64,000 bases of DNA, from assembly GCA_964106645.2 (NCBI GenBank), contig OZ067043.1. One strand, 5' to 3'. Positions 28,407 to 63,059 of this stretch are shown piece by piece. This DNA comes from Podarcis pityusensis. Taxonomy: Eukaryota. Within the stretch, counting starts at the first letter, position 1. Each line of letters begins with the position of its first letter. The position numbers and the translations under genes are program-made. The notes below the pieces were generated by a model. That model was not told where the DNA came from. It was given only the letters and a program-made list of their open reading frames with translations, and made no database searches.

Positions 28407-29022
28407 TGTCATGAACTGGCAGGATGATGGGGAGGAGGAAGAGGGGTGTATCCAGGACTGGAACACATTGGGGCAAGTCATGGATGGGGAAGGAAGTACT
28501 GACAGGGTGACCGAGAATGGCAAGGGGATGGGGGTCAGTGCACAGGAACCAGAGCAGCAGGACCCATCACTGGAGCCAGAGAGGCCCTTGTCTCCACAAA
28601 CATGGTAGGCTCTGAGACATAGGGAGCAGTGGGAGTGGTGCTCTAGGAGGCTAAGGCAGGCAAGGACCCACAGCCCAACTCCCTAGCTGGCCAGGTGGGG
28701 CTCACTAGCTCTGGGAGAAGGTGTGTGATTCCTCAGCTGGAGAAGGCTTGGAACAGGTGAGGGTTGCATGCCTCATCAAGCCCAGATGCTGCAGTCAGCA
28801 TGCAAAAGGGAAGCAGAGCTGAGGTGCTGTGTCTGCTCAACTGCTCATGTTGATGGGCCTTGACTTGGATGCACCTGGACCTCTAGGGGACTGTGCTTCA
28901 GGTTTGACTCTGAACTGTATCCTGACTGCTGGTCTTCAGACTTGGCTACTTGGTTCGTCCCTGGACTGCATTTTCTGACTTTTGCACTTTGGACTTGACA
29001 CACTGCCTTGCTGCCAGGTAGG
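28407..29022 (+). mobile_element. Solo LTR-like element, 3' terminus missing
   Basis: Starts TGtcatgaactggcaggatga and is colinear with the inverted copy at 62571-63059 up to cttgctgccaggtagg. Confidence 0.7.
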
Positions 29023-32000
29023 TTCTACCAGTTTTCTATATCTTTGTGATACTTTCATTATGCAATCTGTTCATGACTGCCACTGTTTTAAATATAGAGC
29101 TGCATCTTCCTGGAAACTTCTTTAATTTCTGGTTTGGCATTCTAATGATTTACCAGGTATATGTGAGGCTATCCCTGAAAAAAGAAATCACCCCAGAATC
29201 CTAGGTGTATCCTGGTGCCTACAAGCACCTAACAATGACAATTCAGTCTGCAGTCTCCATCTTTAGATTGAGTCAAAATGCAGATCTCAATGCTTCAAGA
29301 TTCAGGCCAATCTTTTAATTTCACCTCCACATCCCCACAACACTTGCTTTGTGTAACATCTCACCTGAGCTTGCATATTATTTTGCAACATGTTGTTTGC
29401 CCAACTATGGAATTTGGAGTGTGTTTCCTTCTTATGGACTAACATGGTTATCTTTGCTTTTTATGAAAAAAATAAAAAGGATGTGGGTTTGCAGAACATC
29501 ATGGTTACATCATACCAAGATTATGCTGCCAGAACAACATGCTCTGCTTTTATCATGCTTGTCTTCTAGGGGAATACACAGCTTGTGCAAATCAAACCAC
29601 AGAGCTTTTGTATAGGTGTATAGGACATATGAAAAATGCCCCTATTCAGTCATCCTCTGTCCCATCTGAAGAGCTTCTTTATTATTCTATCATATGGGGT
29701 GGTAAGTATATGCATGGACATCACCTGATTCATATCCCATTAGTCAATGATGCTCATCTGAATGTGTGAATGGCATCCATTGATACTGAATTTGAGAACC
29801 AACATCAGATGTGATGTGTGAGATGCAAGGTGTCTCTTCTGGCTTTTTTAAAAATTGAAAAGCAATTGTGGAGGTTGTGAATTGGATCACAGCAGCAGTG
29901 TGACCCCCTCCCCATGGGCTATTTTGCAATCAAGTAGTTTTCCCACCTGCAAGGGGGAAAAAAAAAGATGAGATTCCTGTACTTTCCACCCCAGGGCGGA
30001 GAAGTAGTTTGGGGGAATGTTTTTTTATTTGAAAAAACAGCCTTCAGGGAACAGGTTAAGCACTTCCTCTTCCAATACCACCACCATAATCAAATCTGAA
30101 GTGCTGCAAAGCTTTATATTACAGTAAAAAAGAAAGAGAGAAGTCAGAAGACTCATCAGTCTCTCTTGTTATGTGTAGTTTAGACCTAATGGTAACATGA
30201 AATGATATGAGAATTCTGCTTTTGGTGTTTCAATCTGTAGCGCAGTGGTGGTTGGAGCCCATTGGTCTCCTTGTCTTCTGCCTACCAGTCCCAAGAGTAG
30301 ATGGAGCTGGAGCCAATGGCAAGCAGATCCACCCCCAAATGCTTGTAAGTAAGAAGCCAGGCAGCTGTATGCTATCTGAGGGAAGACTGAGGATGGTGGG
30401 GCAACATTCCATTCATTATGGACCAGCCTCCACTGCTGTAGTGGCTGTTTTGCACATAAAACTCATCCATCAATGTTGTTGTCACTACGTCTTACCCAGG
30501 TGAACTCAACCTAAATCTTCCGGTGCCAGCCAGCAGCACCTCCGTAATGTAACGACTGCAGTACAGCCTTGCAAACAAAAACGTTTCTGCAGTTTGGAAG
30601 AAAGCTGTGCTGGTGCACATGCTTAGGACTGTGAATGTGCTATCTGTACCTTATCTGAATCTATTTGTACCTTGGAGGATGAATACATTGGAATGCAGCG
30701 AACAGCATACCATGGTAATGGGGCCATATAAAACTGATAGAGCTCTGTGTGTTGAAGTATGTCAGCTGAGGATTCTGTTGGGGAATTTCATTATACTTCC
30801 TAGAGTTGTGAATTGTTGCAGCTTTAGTGGTTTATAATAGCTGAAGATCTATTCTCTCTTTATTTTCTCTCTTAAATGGAGAACAGGACAGAAGAGCCTT
30901 TTTCTCTCTTAGTAATCTTTTTTCCCTTCTCTTTGGGAAGAGGCCCTTTGAAGCCTGCTTCTTCATTGTTGTGCAACATGGGCTTTGAGCAGAACAATAC
31001 CACTTCTTCCTCATTTCTTAGTTATGATTTTTGGGACCTTGAAGATGTGATGCTTTCGGATTTTTTTGTGTGCATGCTGGTCTAGAAACAGGGTGCTACA
31101 AAAGGCGTTTCTACTTTTTTTTGTCTGTCTATCATTTGTGGTGTCTTCTTTTTTGTCTCCTCCAGCTGAACTTTTTATGGATTTAGTTCTATAGACATTA
31201 CAGCTCATTAGAGTTTACAGATATTTCAGTTTGATGAGTTAAAGATGCCCAGCCTAACACCTTTCCTTTAGCACAAAGAGGAAATTTCAGCTTGTACCAG
31301 ATCAATTTTATCTTTAAAAAAGCATTGTACCAATAAAACCACAAGTGCTTTGTTAAATACATGTGGTGGCTTTCTTGTGCAGAATATGTTGTCTTAGTGT
31401 TTGTTTGTTTCAGTAAAGGCATCTGTATTGCCTTCTTCTCACCCCCACTGCTATAGCAATTCTGGCCAATAGAGAAAATGACCTTCGTGACTGGAAAAAG
31501 GCCAACAAACTGGAGTCTTTAAGAGGATGGCTATTTTCTTTAAAAAGGACCAAGAGGAGCTATTGGCAGTTAATCTGCACATTGTAAGGAAGGGGGAAAT
31601 GATCTGATGGAGGAAGTTTTGAGGCCAGCAGCTCTATGAGAGATTGCCCTGTGTCATTTCTGGCTGAAATAAATAACAGAGCTCTCTTAGTTTTGCATGT
31701 TATGGAGGAAGAGCTGGTCTTTATGTGACTTTCAATTTGTGCCTTTCCGAGTTTCTAGTTGGGAACTTCTGTATTTCCACCATATAGCCCCTGCATGCTT
31801 AAGGATTCTAGGATGTGTTCTAAGGAGTACACTCGGTTCAAATGGGGCACTGGGCAGACCTGTTGGACCTCGCTGTTGCTCAGCTTGAACTGGTGGTGTG
31901 ATCAAGAGCCAGGGCCAGCTAAAGACATTTGGGTGGTTGAGTTGACAGACAAAGATGGCACCCTCCATTCTGCATACCGAAGCTGGCTGGACTGGCAGCT

Positions 32001-37128: not shown

Positions 37129-37294
37129 AAATGTGGAAATACTGTAAGAAAGAAATGTATCTAGGCCTATGTTTTTGATGTAACTATATACAGTGTTACC
37201 TCGGTTTATGAACTTAATCCGTTCCGGAAGTCCGTTCTTAAACCAAGATCGTTCTTAAACTGAGGGACACATTCCCTAATGAGGCCTCCCACTG
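37129..37294 (-). repeat. Inverted duplicate of 37841-38006 (166 bp, 1 mismatch)
   Basis: Base-by-base reverse-complement match including the MITE right half and about 60 bp of unique flank. Confidence 0.95.
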
Positions 37295-37703: not shown

Positions 37704-37944
37704 CAGTGGTACCTCAGTTTAAGAACAGTCCTTTTTACAAATGATTCAGTTTACGAACTCCGCAAAACCGGAAGTAGTGTCCCAGTTTGAGAACTTTACC
37801 TCAGTCTAAGAATGGAATCCAAATGGTGGAAGGGCACCGGCAGTGGGAGGCCTCATTAGGGAATGTGTCCCTCAGTTTAAGAACGATCTTGGTTTAAGAA
37901 CGGACTTCCGGAACGGATTAAGTTCATAAACCGAGGTAACACTG
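37704..37944. mobile_element. Tc1/mariner (Tigger/pogo-like) MITE
   Basis: TA-cagtggtacctcagttta ... taaaccgaggtaacactg-TA, i.e. TIRs with a TA TSD. Confidence 0.9.
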
Positions 37945-39568
37945 TATATAGTTACATCAAAAACATAGGCCTAGATACATTTCTTACTTACAGTATTTCC
38001 ACATTTCCCTGGCTTCCATATGGCATGACTGTTCTAATCAAAGTGCCCCAATAGAAAGGGGAATGGAAGAGGCAGAACCTGTCATTTGGCAATCCGTCAT
38101 CTGGCATTTGGTAATTCTTCTCAGGGTAAACCTAACCCAATAGGTAGTACAGGCAGTTGTCTGGGATAGCAGAATCTCAGGGGCTCTAACCTAATTGGAA
38201 AAATAATCTTGGGTGAACAGCATCCTCCCTCTTAGACCTATGGGGCAATATGCTTTAATGTATTGGAAGTCAACTATGCATTCATTTCCCAGTTGCAGAC
38301 CTTCCCCTTCATTCTGTGCAGACGATGGAGTAAGAGTCCTTTACTTTTGTTTCTTTGTGTAGAAAGCTAACAAGGCTGCAATGAAGAAAATCCTTGAAGA
38401 GGAAACACAATCCCCCCTCTTCACTACATAAAACAAAATGTTGGGGGAGGGGGAATTAATTTTTGCCTAAGGCAGCAAAATAGCCGGAGCCAGCTCTGAC
38501 TCAAACAAGTACAGTAATAACCTTGATGATGCAGAATTTATCTTGCCCATCTGCATCTACTCACTGCATGCAGCTAGTTGTTAATTTCCCAGGGAATTCC
38601 TTGCCTTTCGATCACAGCTGAAATAACCAATCTTGATGATGTACCATGTTTCTACAGGAGTGCTATAATGTGAACAGTTGAGAGAAATCCTGAGGGGACA
38701 ATCAATACCATTAATCTACTGTTGGTGGGGGGGGGGGAATGACTGTGTGGAGGAGGATTGTGATTACTCCAAGCTTTTCAAAAGTAGAAGCTAACTCTGC
38801 CTTGTTCTGTTGAACTGTGTGAATGATCATTCAGGGGCTAGGATCCTGCTCCCTCTCCCTAAGGTCATTTCATGAGCTGCAGATTTCCCCGCATATGTGT
38901 GTGTGGCTGCAACCCATTTCCATGCATCAGTGGAATTTTGCCACTGATTTTAGGGTGGTGGTGGGAGAAGGAGTGGCTTGCATCCAAAGATTATGGGACC
39001 CCTCTGCTTAAAATTGGGATTTGAGCTTTCCAAAGGTTCAGATATGCAGCCCTCTTGGAATGTAAAACAAAAACAGAATATGAAACTGGATTATTTGTAC
39101 ACAAGGAACACTTTGCAAATTAGGTGTAGCTGCGCCAGCCTCAATCTATCAGCCCCAAGAAGGTGACAGTGTACAATGCTCTTCAGATAGATTTTCATGA
39201 CCAATTTATCTATCAATCATTATCTTGATGGATTGGAGTAGTTAATTGTGTCAATGGTGATTTCTAGAGGGCCCAGTTTTGGATTAATTAATTGACTGGC
39301 CGCAGTGACTACTTCAGCACCACTAGGGTCTGCCAGTGAGTCTGCTCATTAGCACAAGATGAGTTACAAATTGAGAACAATGCTGACTATGTGTGGGAGA
39401 AGCATATTTATTCTTGATTGTATTATGCACAGTGTAGCTCTGCTGTGAGCTTCATGTCATACAATGGTATACAAGGTCACAGTCTAGCACACATATATTC
39501 TTTGGTGCCCACTAAAGTTAAGTGAAAATCCTATTAAACATTACAGTGTAGGAAGACAGCATTGTAGA

Positions 39569-42870: not shown

Positions 42871-42990
42871 GGTTTGCAGCCAGCTCCTTTCTACTCAGAG
42901 TAGACCCACTGAAATAAATGGACTTGAACCAGTCATGTCTATGGATTTCAATGGGTCTACTCTGAGTAGAACTCATGTTGGAGACTACCC
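42871..42990. mobile_element. Palindromic non-autonomous DNA element (Harbinger/Chompy-like)
   Basis: Arms ttctactcagagtagacccactgaaat (42889-42915) / atttcaatgggtctactctgagtagaa (42945-42971). Confidence 0.7.
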
Positions 42991-50015: not shown

Positions 50016-50440
50016 TTATCCAGATTCCTAATGGACAGCTTTCTCCATCATATTGTCTACTTAGGCCAGACACTACAATAAGGTTTTAAAAAATATATCT
50101 AATGAAGTATGAGCTGGATAGATACCAGCCCCTTCTGGGTGCTAGGACAGGTAGCAGGACTGCTTGCAAGAACAAGAAGTTGGTGATCTTTCCAGAAGCA
50201 GTGGGTGGCATGCTGGGGTTCAGCAGCTCAACTGATGGTCACCTGGCTGCATCCCTGAAGCATACTAGGACAGAGAGAGGGAGGTTGGCATGGTGCAGTC
50301 TGGTGTTCCTGCCAGTGCATTGCACTGCACTGACCTCATTGCTGCACCCCTCCCCTTCTCAGTCCCAGTGTGCTACCATTTCTACAGAAGTCAAGTGACT
50401 GGCATAGCCTCACCACGCTATCTGCTGTTGCTATCTATTC

Positions 50441-51366
50441 TGAACAAAATAACACAACATGATGGCCAATAACAATGACACTAAACACTATTTATAGATT
50501 AATACACATGATCAGAAATTGCAACCAAAGTCTCTAAATCTTCTTCACCAGTCGTGGTAGAATAATTCAAAAGTTCAATATATACATAATCTGTCACCAA
50601 ATATCACCGGAACAGAGTTTCCGGATAATCAATCTGTTTCGTTCAATGCTTCATCAGCCAATCTTGATCAATTCTTCATCAGCCAGACTTGTAAGAATTA
50701 ATATGAGAAGGATGCAGTTCAATTTCTTAACAAGCTGAAATTACAATATACATGCGATGAAACCTGCGTCTGTATAAAATAAATTGCATAATACAATATA
50801 TACAACTAAGATTCATACCCAGTCTTACATGTAAGTAAATATAAATGCTGTAGAAAGCAATGATCCACTGACTGGACGGGGTACTGTTTTCATCTGGTTG
50901 TCAGGCATTCTTGCTGTTAATGTTGTGCTGTGTCTTTAATTTCCCTTACTGTATATTAGTTTCACCTGTGGCTAACTATATTATGTTCTTTACAATTTGT
51001 TACCAGCATCAGTTACTACAGTATCATATGAGTACTGATCCAGAGCATATTTTCTGCAGTATTTATATTTACTTACATGTAAGATTGGGTATGTATCTTA
51101 GTTGGGTATGTATCTTAGCACTGAACAAAACAGATTGGTTATCCGGAACTCTGTTCCGGTGATATTTGGTGGCAGATTATGTATATATCGAACTTTTGAA
51201 TTATTCTACCGCGACTGGTGAAGAAGTTTTAGAGACCTTGGTTGCAATTTCTGATCATTTGTATTAGTCTATAAATAGTGTTTAGTGCCATTGTTATTGG
51301 CCATCGTGTTGTGTTATTTTGTTCAGCTTGTCTATATTGCAACACAGGGTTCTGTTTATGGATTAT
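50441..51366. mobile_element. Penelope-like retroelement insertion with inverted arms and 15-bp TSD
   Basis: Identical tgttgctatctattc at 50426-50440 and 51367-51381. Arms 50440-50650 / 51118-51326 and 50803-50856 / 51051-51104 are reverse complements. The left arm contains a hammerhead motif. Confidence 0.8.
50606..50662 (-). ncRNA. Type I hammerhead ribozyme motif (PLE-associated, minimal stem II)
   Basis: Minus strand: attgg-CTGATGA-ag cattgaa c-GAAA-caga[ttgattatccggaaac]tctg-T-T-ccggt. Stem III is ACAGA/UCUGU, stem I is AUUGG/CCGGU with two G:U pairs, and the predicted cleavage triplet is GUU. Confidence 0.7.
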
Positions 51367-51619
51367 TGTTGCTATCTATTCAGCAAATCAGATTGGGAGG
51401 AAGTCTGAAAAAAGGAAACCTCATTTTAATATATCTAATTTTCTTTGTAGATCTTGCCAGGTAAAATGGCAATGGTCCTTGCAAGGTGAATTTGTGTGTA
51501 TGTGGTGCCCCTCTAGTCTCACTGATAAATCCCAGTGGCTTTTGAGATGTTTGGATGAAAGCTGTGATGCAAGATGCTCTAGTAGCAAACAATTTGAACA
51601 TGATAATTAAAAGGCTAAT

Positions 51620-52135
51620 ATGGACCAATGAACTTACTCCCCCAAACACCCTGCAAATTAGAGCTATAGCCCAAGGCTGTGTAAAATAATCAACATAAGG
51701 CTGATTTAATTATATAAACAAATTCAGGCTAAACAATTATCTTTAATATAATAATAATAATCCATATGCAAACATTCAATTAAATTCTAGTAAATCTGAG
51801 CAAGTCAGTAGAAAAATTCCAAATGTAACCAATTTTACTTGTTAGCTAACAGCCACTGATGAAAAGAGGAGTCAAAATGCATGTGGCACTTTTGATTGGA
51901 CTGAGCTGATTTGCTTCTAAGATTGCATGAACTTGGGACTCTTTGATTGCTTTGAAAACGATTGCCTCTAAGATTGGTTACATTTGGAATTTTTCTACTG
52001 ACTTGATAGGCTTAGATTTAATTGTACGTTTGCTTATGACATATTATTATATTTAAGACAGTTGATTAGACAGAATTTGTTTATATAATTCGATAAACAT
52101 TAATTATTGGGCAGTGGGTTCATTTAGTTCAGTCT
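51620..52135. mobile_element. Older Penelope-like fold-back remnant with degenerate hammerhead motif
   Basis: Inverted arms 51708-51833 / 51973-52090, with the inner 33 bp perfect. The spacer contains gcca-CTGATGA-aaagaggagtc-AAAA-tgcatg-tggc (51852-51887). Confidence 0.65.
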
Positions 52136-55540: not shown

Positions 55541-56650
55541 TGTAGCTTTCCCAATGGCTTACTGGCATTGCTACTTAAGTAGCCCTTGCATCCAGATAGG
55601 CAAATAAAGAGGCAGACACACAAGTTGGGGTTGAACTTATATTTATTTAGAACTTATATTAAAATCAGCAGAGGGAGATGACTATGGGGTGGGAACTAAC
55701 TTAATTGGATAACTATAGCCATTGGGTGACCCACCCTTGCCTAAGGAATTAGGGCACAGCTCTCTAGCCTGCCCTGTTTCCTGGCCCATACTCTGAAGGT
55801 GAGAACAGAGACTTTGCCTCATCATGTCCCTGGGACTGCAGAGCTCCTAGTGGATGAGGAAGTTTGGCCTCAAAGGAGGCCCCTATCCCACCCACTGAAC
55901 TGTGGAGTCTGAGAAGTGAGCCTCAGGGCTGACCCATCACCTGAAAGGTGCCTAAAGGGTGTCACTAGCCTAAACCGAACTATTTCTTTTCCTGCACCCA
56001 CACTGCCCAAAGCAGGCATAGGCAAACTACACTTCCCATCATCCCTGACCACTGGTCCTGTTAGCTAGGGACAATGGGAACTGTAGTCCCAAACATCTGG
56101 AGGGCTGGAGTTTGCCTATGCCTGGTCCAAAGTGACCAAATCAAGAAGATTAACCTACTGAAACAACACAATAGACCATCTAGCACTCTGTCCCGCTATT
56201 CAGTGCGAAGTAGGCAAAGAGCCAATTTGCAATCCAAAATGCAGTTTGGGGGAAAATCCTATGTGGTAACCCCAAAGCACACTGGGAGGGAGGGAGGGCA
56301 CTGCTGGAGAGAAGACAGACCATCCTTTAAGTAGGGATCAAGCCCTGCCTTCCTCCTCAGACCATCTTAGGAATATACCAAATGGCACCAAGGATTTCCT
56401 CGCACTGCCTCTCTTGCTCCAGTGGCCCAGAACAGTGCACCTCCGTCTCAGTTCCATCTAGCCTATTTCGTGGAATGTTCTTGGGGAAAATGCACTTCCC
56501 AGGGGCTGGGCACATTGCCTTGCACATCACTATGCACCAGCCAAAGGGGGGGGGGAGACCTTCTTCCATCTCCTTGCATGCTCTTGGGGTAATCTGAGTG
56601 CTTGCTCTTTGTCTTGCTGTCATGTGCCAAGCACTGGCTATGGAGTATGC
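55541..56650 (-). mobile_element. Probable ERV-like LTR remnant (right boundary uncertain)
   Basis: Minus strand ends ...gggaaagctaCA, with an AATAAA about 100 bp upstream and a TATA-like cctacttaaagg near 56330. It is interrupted by a MITE. Confidence 0.4.
56013..56124. mobile_element. hAT-type MITE, internally deleted
   Basis: Perfect 16-bp TIR caggcataggcaaact / agtttgcctatgcctg; 8-bp TSD gcccaaag / gtccaaag. Confidence 0.9.
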
Positions 56651-62570: not shown

Positions 62571-63059
62571 AGTCCTGAACCCCTGGCCTACCTGGCAGCA
62601 AGTCACTATGTCAGGTCCAAAATTCAAAGCCCAAGTTCCAAAGGTCAGGAAACATGCTAGCTGCATCATCTGGTCTCGATGAAGCATGTGACCCTCACCT
62701 GTTCCAAGCCTACTCCAGCTGAGGAATCACACCCCTCCTTCAGAGCTAGCGAACCCCACCTGGCCAGCTAGGGAGCTGAGCTGTGGGCCCTTGCCTGTCT
62801 CAGTCTCCTAGACCGCTCCTCCCACTGTTGCCTACAGCTCAGAGCCCACCATGTTCATGGAGACAGGGGCCCCTCTGTCTCTAGTGATGGATCCTGTTGC
62901 TCTGGTTCCTGTGCATTGACTCCCATCCCCTCACCATCCTCCATCATCCTGTGAATACTTCCTTCCACATTCCCTGCTTGCCCTGGTGTGTCCCAGTCCT
63001 GGTTACTCCGCTTGCTGGGATCCTCTTCCTCCTTCCTGTCATCCTGCCAGTTCATGGCA
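62571..63059 (-). mobile_element. Solo LTR with 5-bp TSD (Gypsy- or class III ERV-like)
   Basis: tccat at 62566-62570 and 63060-63064; imperfect terminal IR agtcctgaac / gttcatggca; homologous to 28407-29022. Confidence 0.75.

What the first reader, a model, noticed from the sequence alone, without database searches (positions are those of the whole stretch)
50426..51381. Non-coding fold-back retroelement insertion (Penelope-like) with ribozyme, inverted arms and clean 15-bp TSD
Seen: a 926-bp insert flanked by identical 15-mers. It consists of two oppositely oriented copies of the same AT-rich unit (about 210-bp and 54-bp arm pairs, roughly 90-95% identical by eye) and has no ORF. The right copy lacks about 150 bp, including the CUGAUGA half of the hammerhead, and carries a gggtatgtatcttag tandem duplication. 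Known: Penelope-like elements carry minimal hammerheads in their pseudo-LTRs and often insert as inverted, truncated pairs. Inference: this is a PLE-derived or non-autonomous ribozyme-bearing retroelement inserted in a single event. Any transcript through it would form long dsRNA next to a self-cleavage site.
Basis: partly seen in the sequence, partly recalled or inferred. Interest (0 to 1): 0.75.

Follow-up and report, generated by a model that had tools for sequence, protein, structure and literature searches.

The report
Old inverted Penelope-type retrotransposon remnant
This is a decayed, protein-free scrap of a known kind of jumping element, inserted as two back-to-back copies, and its built-in self-cutting RNA motif is probably no longer able to cut.

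Summary
A 926-bp insert lies between identical 15-mers and is made of two oppositely oriented copies of one unit (16 substitutions in 263 aligned bp). The copies are head-to-head, and only the right one carries an extra 41-bp 3' end. Inverted truncated copy plus one-sided 30-40-bp 'tail' plus TSD is the published signature of endonuclease-bearing Penelope-like elements (PLEs). A PLE-style hammerhead core lies on the minus strand of the left copy (unique in the window; 1 of 5000 shuffles). It is atypical: helix II has 1 bp, a rival hairpin covers the cut site, and the active fold costs 12 kcal/mol locally. In a read-through RNA the site is inside the duplex (+61 kcal/mol), so 'dsRNA next to a self-cleavage site' is not supported. 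'Non-autonomous family' is unproven; a 5'-truncated UTR-only copy suffices. Other copies, the RT-endonuclease partner, the empty site and the host could not be tested. One post-hoc lead: both target nick sites and the tail boundary share CAGC. Verdict: new member of a known kind, modest interest.

The parts
50426..50440 (.). Left target-site duplication (15 bp; the last base can also be read as 1-nt microhomology with the element)
50441..50856 (-). Left copy: inverted, 5'-truncated, tail-less pLTR-like unit (416 bp); 3' end abuts the left TSD
50606..50662 (-). Type I hammerhead-like motif: helix I 50662-50658/50610-50606, CUGAUGA 50657-50651, extra A, G10.1-C11.1 (50649/50641), GAAA 50640-50637, helix III 50637-50633/50616-50612, predicted GUU cut after 50611
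50643..50691 (-). 25-bp tandem duplication (87%) giving a second CUGAUGAAG at 50682-50674
50651..50802 (-). 152 nt present only in the left copy (deleted from the right copy)
50857..51050 (+). 194-nt unpaired middle; most likely further upstream UTR of the right copy (T-rich on plus like the unit's sense strand); assignment only suggestive
51051..51325 (+). Right copy, part shared with the left copy (arms 51051-51104 and 51117-51325); ribozyme core deleted and GAAA changed at 51127
51085..51118 (+). 17-bp tandem duplication at the deletion junction; 12 templated new nt between 3-nt (TTG) and 2-nt (AG) microhomologies
51326..51366 (+). 41-bp one-sided 3' extension (PLE 'tail')
   Evidence: definition
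51367..51381 (.). Right target-site duplication

Best explanation
A single old insertion made by the RT/GIY-YIG machinery of an endonuclease-bearing Penelope-like element, consisting only of 3'-UTR/pLTR sequence. Shown: TSD, head-to-head copies with both 3' ends at the target, one-sided 41-bp tail, hammerhead core, deletion with templated junction, transition-rich decay. Inferred mechanism: the protein nicked both target strands 14-15 nt apart, leaving two 3' overhangs. One primed cDNA at the end of the tail (right copy, about 650 nt before the deletion). The other primed 41 nt further inside (left copy, 416 nt). The two truncated cDNAs were joined head-to-head, and fill-in made the TSD. A microhomology-mediated deletion, before or after insertion, removed 152 nt from the right copy. 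Today it is most likely inert: no ORF, one ribozyme deleted, the other misfolded and, in a read-through RNA, buried in a 210-bp duplex. Its only likely activity is passive dsRNA/hairpin formation if the region is transcribed.
For: Architecture matches Craig 2021 (inverted 5'-truncated copy; 30-40-bp tail at one end) and Arkhipova 2013 (inverted pLTRs, 31-bp tail, 8-10-bp TSDs, head-to-head, microhomology deletions). Frangieh 2024 showed that an Anolis PLE protein nicks and extends both strands and starts RT at two sites that delimit the tail, without target homology; here left-junction homology is at most 1 nt. The core CUGANGAH-G..C-GAAA has the PLE-typical extra base and G10.1-C11.1, is the only such match in 64 kb, and occurs in 1 of 5000 shuffles of the insert. 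Helices I and III of 5 bp each at a GUU site arise in 242 of 20000 shuffles. An intact TSD is compatible with 6.1% arm divergence (P = 0.39).
Against: No RT or GIY-YIG sequence links it to any PLE clade, and no second copy exists in the window. No Rfam hammerhead hit. Helix II is 1 bp, against 3-8 bp as I read the 56-row alignment of Cervera 2014; helix III is longer than in those metazoan motifs and not palindromic. With a looser criterion the helix test is weak (1002 of 20000). The 15-bp TSD is longer than the 8-10 bp seen in the rotifer paper, and the tail is 1 nt over the quoted range. No clear palindrome sits at the inversion junction, unlike the A. vaga cases. The middle's strand assignment is matched or exceeded by 28-48 of 642 background windows.
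Confidence: 0.8

Rival explanations
1. A copy of a dedicated non-autonomous PLE-dependent family (retrozyme-like or SINE-like), about 650 nt long, mobilised in trans.
For: About 650 nt of unit with no coding remnant; vertebrate retrozymes derive from pLTRs and range from 51 to 972 bp. The degenerate ribozyme was already so in the donor, since both arms share the short helix II.
Against: Retrozymes are defined as head-to-tail tandems with a hammerhead in each unit; this is head-to-head with one motif. 5' truncation alone explains the lack of an ORF.
Confidence: 0.3
2. Same element, but the inversion arose by self-priming on an antisense template (Arkhipova 2013 model), or by a later fold-back duplication of a single inserted copy.
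For: The self-priming model is published for head-to-head PLE pairs. A recent 166-bp inverted duplication at 99.4% exists elsewhere in this window, so fold-back duplications occur in this genome.
Against: No clear palindrome at the inversion junction. The left arm ends exactly at the TSD and exactly one tail-length short of the right end, which a later duplication would not be expected to produce.
Confidence: 0.15
3. A non-autonomous DNA transposon (MITE or fold-back) with long terminal inverted repeats.
For: Long inverted arms, no ORF; MITE-like palindromic elements occur nearby.
Against: The inverted repeat is not terminal on the right (41-bp offset). A 15-bp TSD exceeds DDE transposase TSD lengths (recalled, 2-11 bp). 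The hammerhead core would be unexplained.
Confidence: 0.04
4. An L1-type twin-priming inversion of a LINE or SINE 3' end.
For: A 15-bp TSD and an inverted 5' part are typical of L1 twin priming (recalled).
Against: No poly(A) or microsatellite 3' end, and the halves repeat the same 264+ bp instead of being adjacent segments of one RNA.
Confidence: 0.03

Closest known systems
EN+ Penelope-like elements (Penelope/Poseidon, Neptune clades): inverted-pLTR insertions (Arkhipova 2013 PMC3846280; Craig 2021 PMC8557442)
   Same: Head-to-head inverted 5'-truncated copy, one-sided tail, TSD around the whole, microhomology deletion, hammerhead core in the repeat.
   Different: No ORF sequence at all in this copy; TSD 15 bp versus the 8-10 bp seen in those passages; tail 41 bp; no junction palindrome; clade unassigned.
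Poseidon of Anolis carolinensis, PAc (Frangieh 2024 PMC11167929)
   Same: Two 3' ends one tail-length apart; both strands primed; no target homology; ribozyme that does not fold or cut alone.
   Different: In PAc the ORF starts inside the hammerhead and runs through the tail; here the equivalent ATG is followed by a stop after 3 codons and nothing downstream is open. PAc prefers ATT/AT-rich targets; this site is 57% AT with CAGC at both nicks.
Minimal PLE hammerheads (Cervera and de la Pena 2014 PMC4209133)
   Same: Type I, CUGANGAH, extra base after A9, G10.1-C11.1, GUU triplet, short helix I.
   Different: Helix II 1 bp rather than 3-8; helix III 5 bp with a 16-nt non-palindromic loop rather than minimal/palindromic; duplicated 5' core; rival 15-bp hairpin over the cut site in both arms.
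Non-LTR retrozymes (Li et al. bioRxiv 10.64898/2026.07.22.740005)
   Same: Non-coding, pLTR-like, type I hammerhead, size in range.
   Different: Not a head-to-tail tandem; only one complete motif.

Membership tests
EN+ Penelope-like element insertion | Inverted 5'-truncated copy head-to-head with a direct copy | tested here: met
   definition
EN+ Penelope-like element insertion | 30-40-bp tail at only one end | tested here: met
   41 bp (40 if the shared base is given to the arm), 51326-51366
EN+ Penelope-like element insertion | Variable-length TSD around the whole compound | tested here: met
   15 bp; variability across copies and empty site not testable
EN+ Penelope-like element insertion | Hammerhead core within the pLTR | tested here: met
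   core 1 of 5000 shuffles, unique in window; helices atypical (next rows)
EN+ Penelope-like element insertion | Unit is the terminal repeat of an RT + GIY-YIG ORF somewhere in the genome; many dispersed copies | not testable with these tools
   no eukaryotic DNA collection available; none in the window
Autonomous full-length PLE | RT + GIY-YIG ORF inside this copy | tested here: not met
   longest open frame 96 codons, no Pfam or phmmer hit; not filed as autonomous
Active type I hammerhead ribozyme | Conserved core, NUH triplet, helices I and III | tested here: met
   (242 of 20000 shuffles at the strict criterion, 1002 at the loose one)
Active type I hammerhead ribozyme | Stable helix II and an accessible active fold | tested here: not met
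   1-bp helix II; pair probabilities <=0.005; +12, +21, +61 kcal/mol in 69-nt, left-copy and read-through contexts; no Rfam hit
Active type I hammerhead ribozyme | Self-cleavage in vitro | not testable with these tools
   needs a bench assay
Non-LTR retrozyme | Head-to-tail tandem units each with a complete hammerhead | tested here: not met
   definition
MITE / TIR DNA transposon | Inverted repeats at both termini and a short fixed TSD | tested here: not met
   41-bp offset on the right, 15-bp TSD; TSD ranges recalled
L1-type twin-primed inversion | Poly(A)/simple-repeat 3' end and non-overlapping halves | tested here: not met
   definition recalled

The most novel reading that the evidence does not exclude
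This family's endonuclease cuts as a dimer at a pseudo-palindromic site (CAGC at both nicks, 14-15 nt apart) and cuts the same motif at its own tail boundary. That would mean the one-sided tail is set by endonuclease cleavage rather than only by RT start sites, with long TSDs, and would give a genomic test between the two published tail models. In addition, the 1-bp-helix-II hammerhead with a rival hairpin over its cut site could be a family-conserved, protein-gated ribozyme variant rather than decay. Basis: 218 of 200000 random junction triples share a 4-mer, 753 of 63723 mock sites are as symmetric; both were noticed after looking at one insertion.
Probability: 0.15. Interest if true: 0.6.

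Novelty: new member of a known kind. Interest (0 to 1): 0.33.

Why it matters
As it stands it is a clean example of a published PLE insertion geometry that repeat-annotation tools often mislabel, and one more dispersed inverted repeat able to yield dsRNA if transcribed. It would matter more if family-wide data confirmed the junction motif: how PLEs make the inverted copy and the one-sided tail is still open (endonuclease resolution, Craig 2021; two RT start sites, Frangieh 2024; antisense self-priming, Arkhipova 2013), and a family with long TSDs and a defined nick motif would let these be compared from genome sequence alone.

Tried and rejected
Rfam at gathering (whole window) and E<=10 (50300-51500): no hammerhead; 4 sub-threshold chance hits. 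Other copies in the window: none beyond the arms (best other hit E 0.6). GTDB scans with two 21-nt stretches: 0 hits and 4 hits; the four extend to only 21-30 nt and lie in open frames of 353-461 codons, so chance. phmmer with the 96-codon frame, hoping to catch spurious ORFs of sister copies: 0 hits. Host exons or RT fragments: Pfam on 99 of 104 frames of >=85 aa (5 crossing the N run left out) and 148 of 266 frames of 58-84 aa (those beyond position 30000) gave 3 hits, all below cut-off; a rough splice scan gave 6 unconvincing candidates. So intronic versus intergenic is unknown. Deletion as a spliced intron: rejected, because the junction has 12 extra templated nt and no pyrimidine tract. 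Alternative hammerhead topologies using the second core or second GAAA: 3 arrangements passed the filter, all with 1-bp helix II and the same cut site. Middle segment as the end of a GIY-YIG ORF: no resemblance in translation, no Pfam hit. A first divergence count (18 of 265) included 2 edge mismatches and was replaced by 16 of 263. Lunse et al. (PMC5785218) was not held.

Full report
OBSERVATION. The window has identical 15-mers at 50426-50440 and 51367-51381, the only two copies in 64 kb. They enclose 926 bp at 34% GC, against 47% in the 500 bp upstream and 40% in the 300 bp downstream. The insert holds two inverted arm pairs, 50441-50650/51117-51325 and 50803-50856/51051-51104, differing at 16 of 263 aligned positions, 13 transitions, plus one gap; 4 of the changes are CpG-type. 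The minus-strand RNA folds at -452.7 kcal/mol, z = -25, with 0 of 20 shuffles as stable. No other copy of the unit is in the window. The longest stop-free frame is 96 codons, reached by 45 of 500 shuffles, with no Pfam or phmmer hit.

ANATOMY. Taking the strand that carries the hammerhead core as sense, the left copy runs 50856 to 50441 on minus and the right copy runs to 51366 on plus. The copies are head-to-head and both 3' ends touch a TSD. The right copy has 41 more nt at its 3' end (51326-51366) than the left. It lacks the 152 nt found at 50651-50802 in the left copy; at the junction 12 nt were copied from just upstream between TTG and AG microhomologies, which makes the 17-bp tandem at 51085-51118. 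This looks like template slippage or microhomology-mediated repair (inference); whether it happened in the donor or after insertion cannot be told. The 194-nt middle has the T-over-A skew of the right copy (+0.27 versus +0.26; left copy -0.16), so it is probably upstream UTR of the right copy. That is only suggestive: 28-48 of 642 background windows score as high.

THE RIBOZYME. On minus, CUGAUGA (50657-50651), an extra A, G, seven nt, C and GAAA (50640-50637) match the PLE consensus CUGANGAH-G..C-GAAAN of Cervera 2014. The pattern occurs once in the window and in 1 of 5000 dinucleotide shuffles of the insert. A 5-bp helix III and a 5-bp helix I (two G-U pairs) close around GUU at 50613-50611; 242 of 20000 shuffles of the downstream 80 nt do as well, and 1002 under a looser rule. 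So the motif is very probably of hammerhead descent. It is not a typical minimal PLE hammerhead. Helix II is one pair, against 3-8 as I read the 56 motifs of that paper's Figure S3. Helix III has a 16-nt non-palindromic loop. A 15-bp rival hairpin covers the cut site in both arms (-11.9 and -14.1 kcal/mol). The 5' core is duplicated 25 nt upstream. Rfam gives no hit. Forcing the active fold costs 12.2 kcal/mol in 69 nt, 21.0 in the left copy, and 61.5 in a minus-strand read-through, where 50600-50649 is 96% paired with the right arm. A plus-strand transcript has no core at all, and its GAAA is changed at 51127. The cut site is thus inside the duplex, not beside it. Nearest-neighbour energies ignore tertiary contacts and protein help; the Anolis PLE ribozyme cuts only with its protein. 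Activity in the donor element is therefore not excluded.

MECHANISM. Craig 2021 describes PLE insertions as often having an inverted 5'-truncated copy and a 30-40-bp tail at one end. Arkhipova 2013 shows such units inside 8-10-bp TSDs, mostly head-to-head, with microhomology deletions. Frangieh 2024 found that a purified Anolis PLE protein nicks and extends both strands and starts reverse transcription at two sites that delimit the tail, without homology to the target. The simplest reading of this locus follows. Two staggered nicks left 3' overhangs; one primed at the tail end and the other 41 nt inside; both cDNAs stopped early within the UTR and were joined. The geometry is shown; the enzymatic steps are inferred. 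An intact TSD is compatible with 6.1% arm divergence (P = 0.39), so a single old event suffices. The antisense self-priming model predicts a palindrome at the inner junction, and I see none that is clear.

A LEAD. Both nick positions of the pre-insertion site and the tail boundary in the element share CAGC within one base of register; the top-strand site and the tail boundary share TTCAGC. Controls: 218 of 200000 random triples share a 4-mer; 1127 of 200000 pairs share 6 nt; 753 of 63723 mock 15-bp sites are as symmetric (7 of 8). These tests were designed after I saw the pattern, on one insertion, so they overstate the case. If it held across the family it would favour endonuclease cutting as the source of the tail boundary.

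CONTEXT. No host exon or RT fragment was found: 99 of 104 long frames and 148 of 266 shorter frames gave only 3 sub-threshold Pfam hits, and a rough splice scan found nothing convincing. Whether the locus is transcribed is unknown. The neighbouring repeats resemble squamate elements to my memory only; no call identifies the host. Bacterial matches to one 21-mer were chance; the other 21-mer had none.

MEMBERSHIP AND NOVELTY. It works like an EN+ PLE insertion and meets the structural criteria. The protein criterion is not met inside this copy and cannot be tested outside it, so I file it as a truncated PLE-type pLTR insertion of unassigned clade, not as an autonomous element, an active ribozyme or a retrozyme. 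The architecture is published. I found no description of this particular family, of a 1-bp-helix-II PLE hammerhead, or of a CAGC nick motif in nine literature searches, but Repbase, Dfam and most subscription papers were out of reach.

PAPERS SEEN. PMC11167929: parts 1-2 of 4 and the scant text of two figure supplements; its GenBank supplement was unreadable. bioRxiv 10.64898/2026.07.22.740005: parts 1-3 of 5, supplements closed. PMC4209133: parts 1-2 of 4 and supplement parts 1-2 of 3. PMC3846280: passages and Discussion. PMC8557442, PMC9977147, PMC8969392, PMC6765202, PMC2377424: passages only. PMC5785218: not held. DNA-transposon TSD lengths and L1 twin priming are recalled.

VERDICT. Observation confirmed; interpretation partly supported; new member of a known kind; interest 0.33.

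Noticed in passing
window 51696-52102: Old ~407-bp fold-back, MITE-like element 315 bp downstream of the finding (arms 82-97% in parts; 69% self-palindromic overall).
   Followed up: no
window 37129-37294 and 37841-38006: 166-bp inverted duplication at 99.4% identity that covers the end of a MITE-like repeat plus about 64 bp of its flank; looks like a very recent fold-back duplication.
   Followed up: partly
window 18955-19024 (-): tRNA-like match (Rfam 47.6 bits); possibly a SINE head or tRNA pseudogene.
   Followed up: no
window 28407-28802 and 62653-63059: Dispersed repeat pair in opposite orientation, 82% over 409 bp.
   Followed up: no
window 24643-24778, 42889-42971, 24302-24361: Short self-palindromic elements at about 82%; 56026-56102 resembles the first.
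   Followed up: no
window 51307-51366 (+): The tail boundary coincides with a splice-acceptor-like site (rough score 5.0), a donor-like site lies at 51079/50828, and an ATG sits 9 nt before the tail end; could mark a pLTR intron and the ORF start, as in other PLEs. Untested.
   Followed up: partly
window 50824-50835 and 51072-51083: Perfect 12-bp palindrome kept in both copies, about 20 bp from the inversion junction; pLTR 5' palindromes are described in A. vaga.
   Followed up: no
window 50441-51366: CpG observed/expected is 0.48 in the insert versus 0.20 for the window, so the insert is less CpG-depleted than its surroundings.
   Followed up: no
window 22052-22180: Assembly gap of 129 N; 21998-22051 just before it matches 1924-1977 at 91%.
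   Followed up: no
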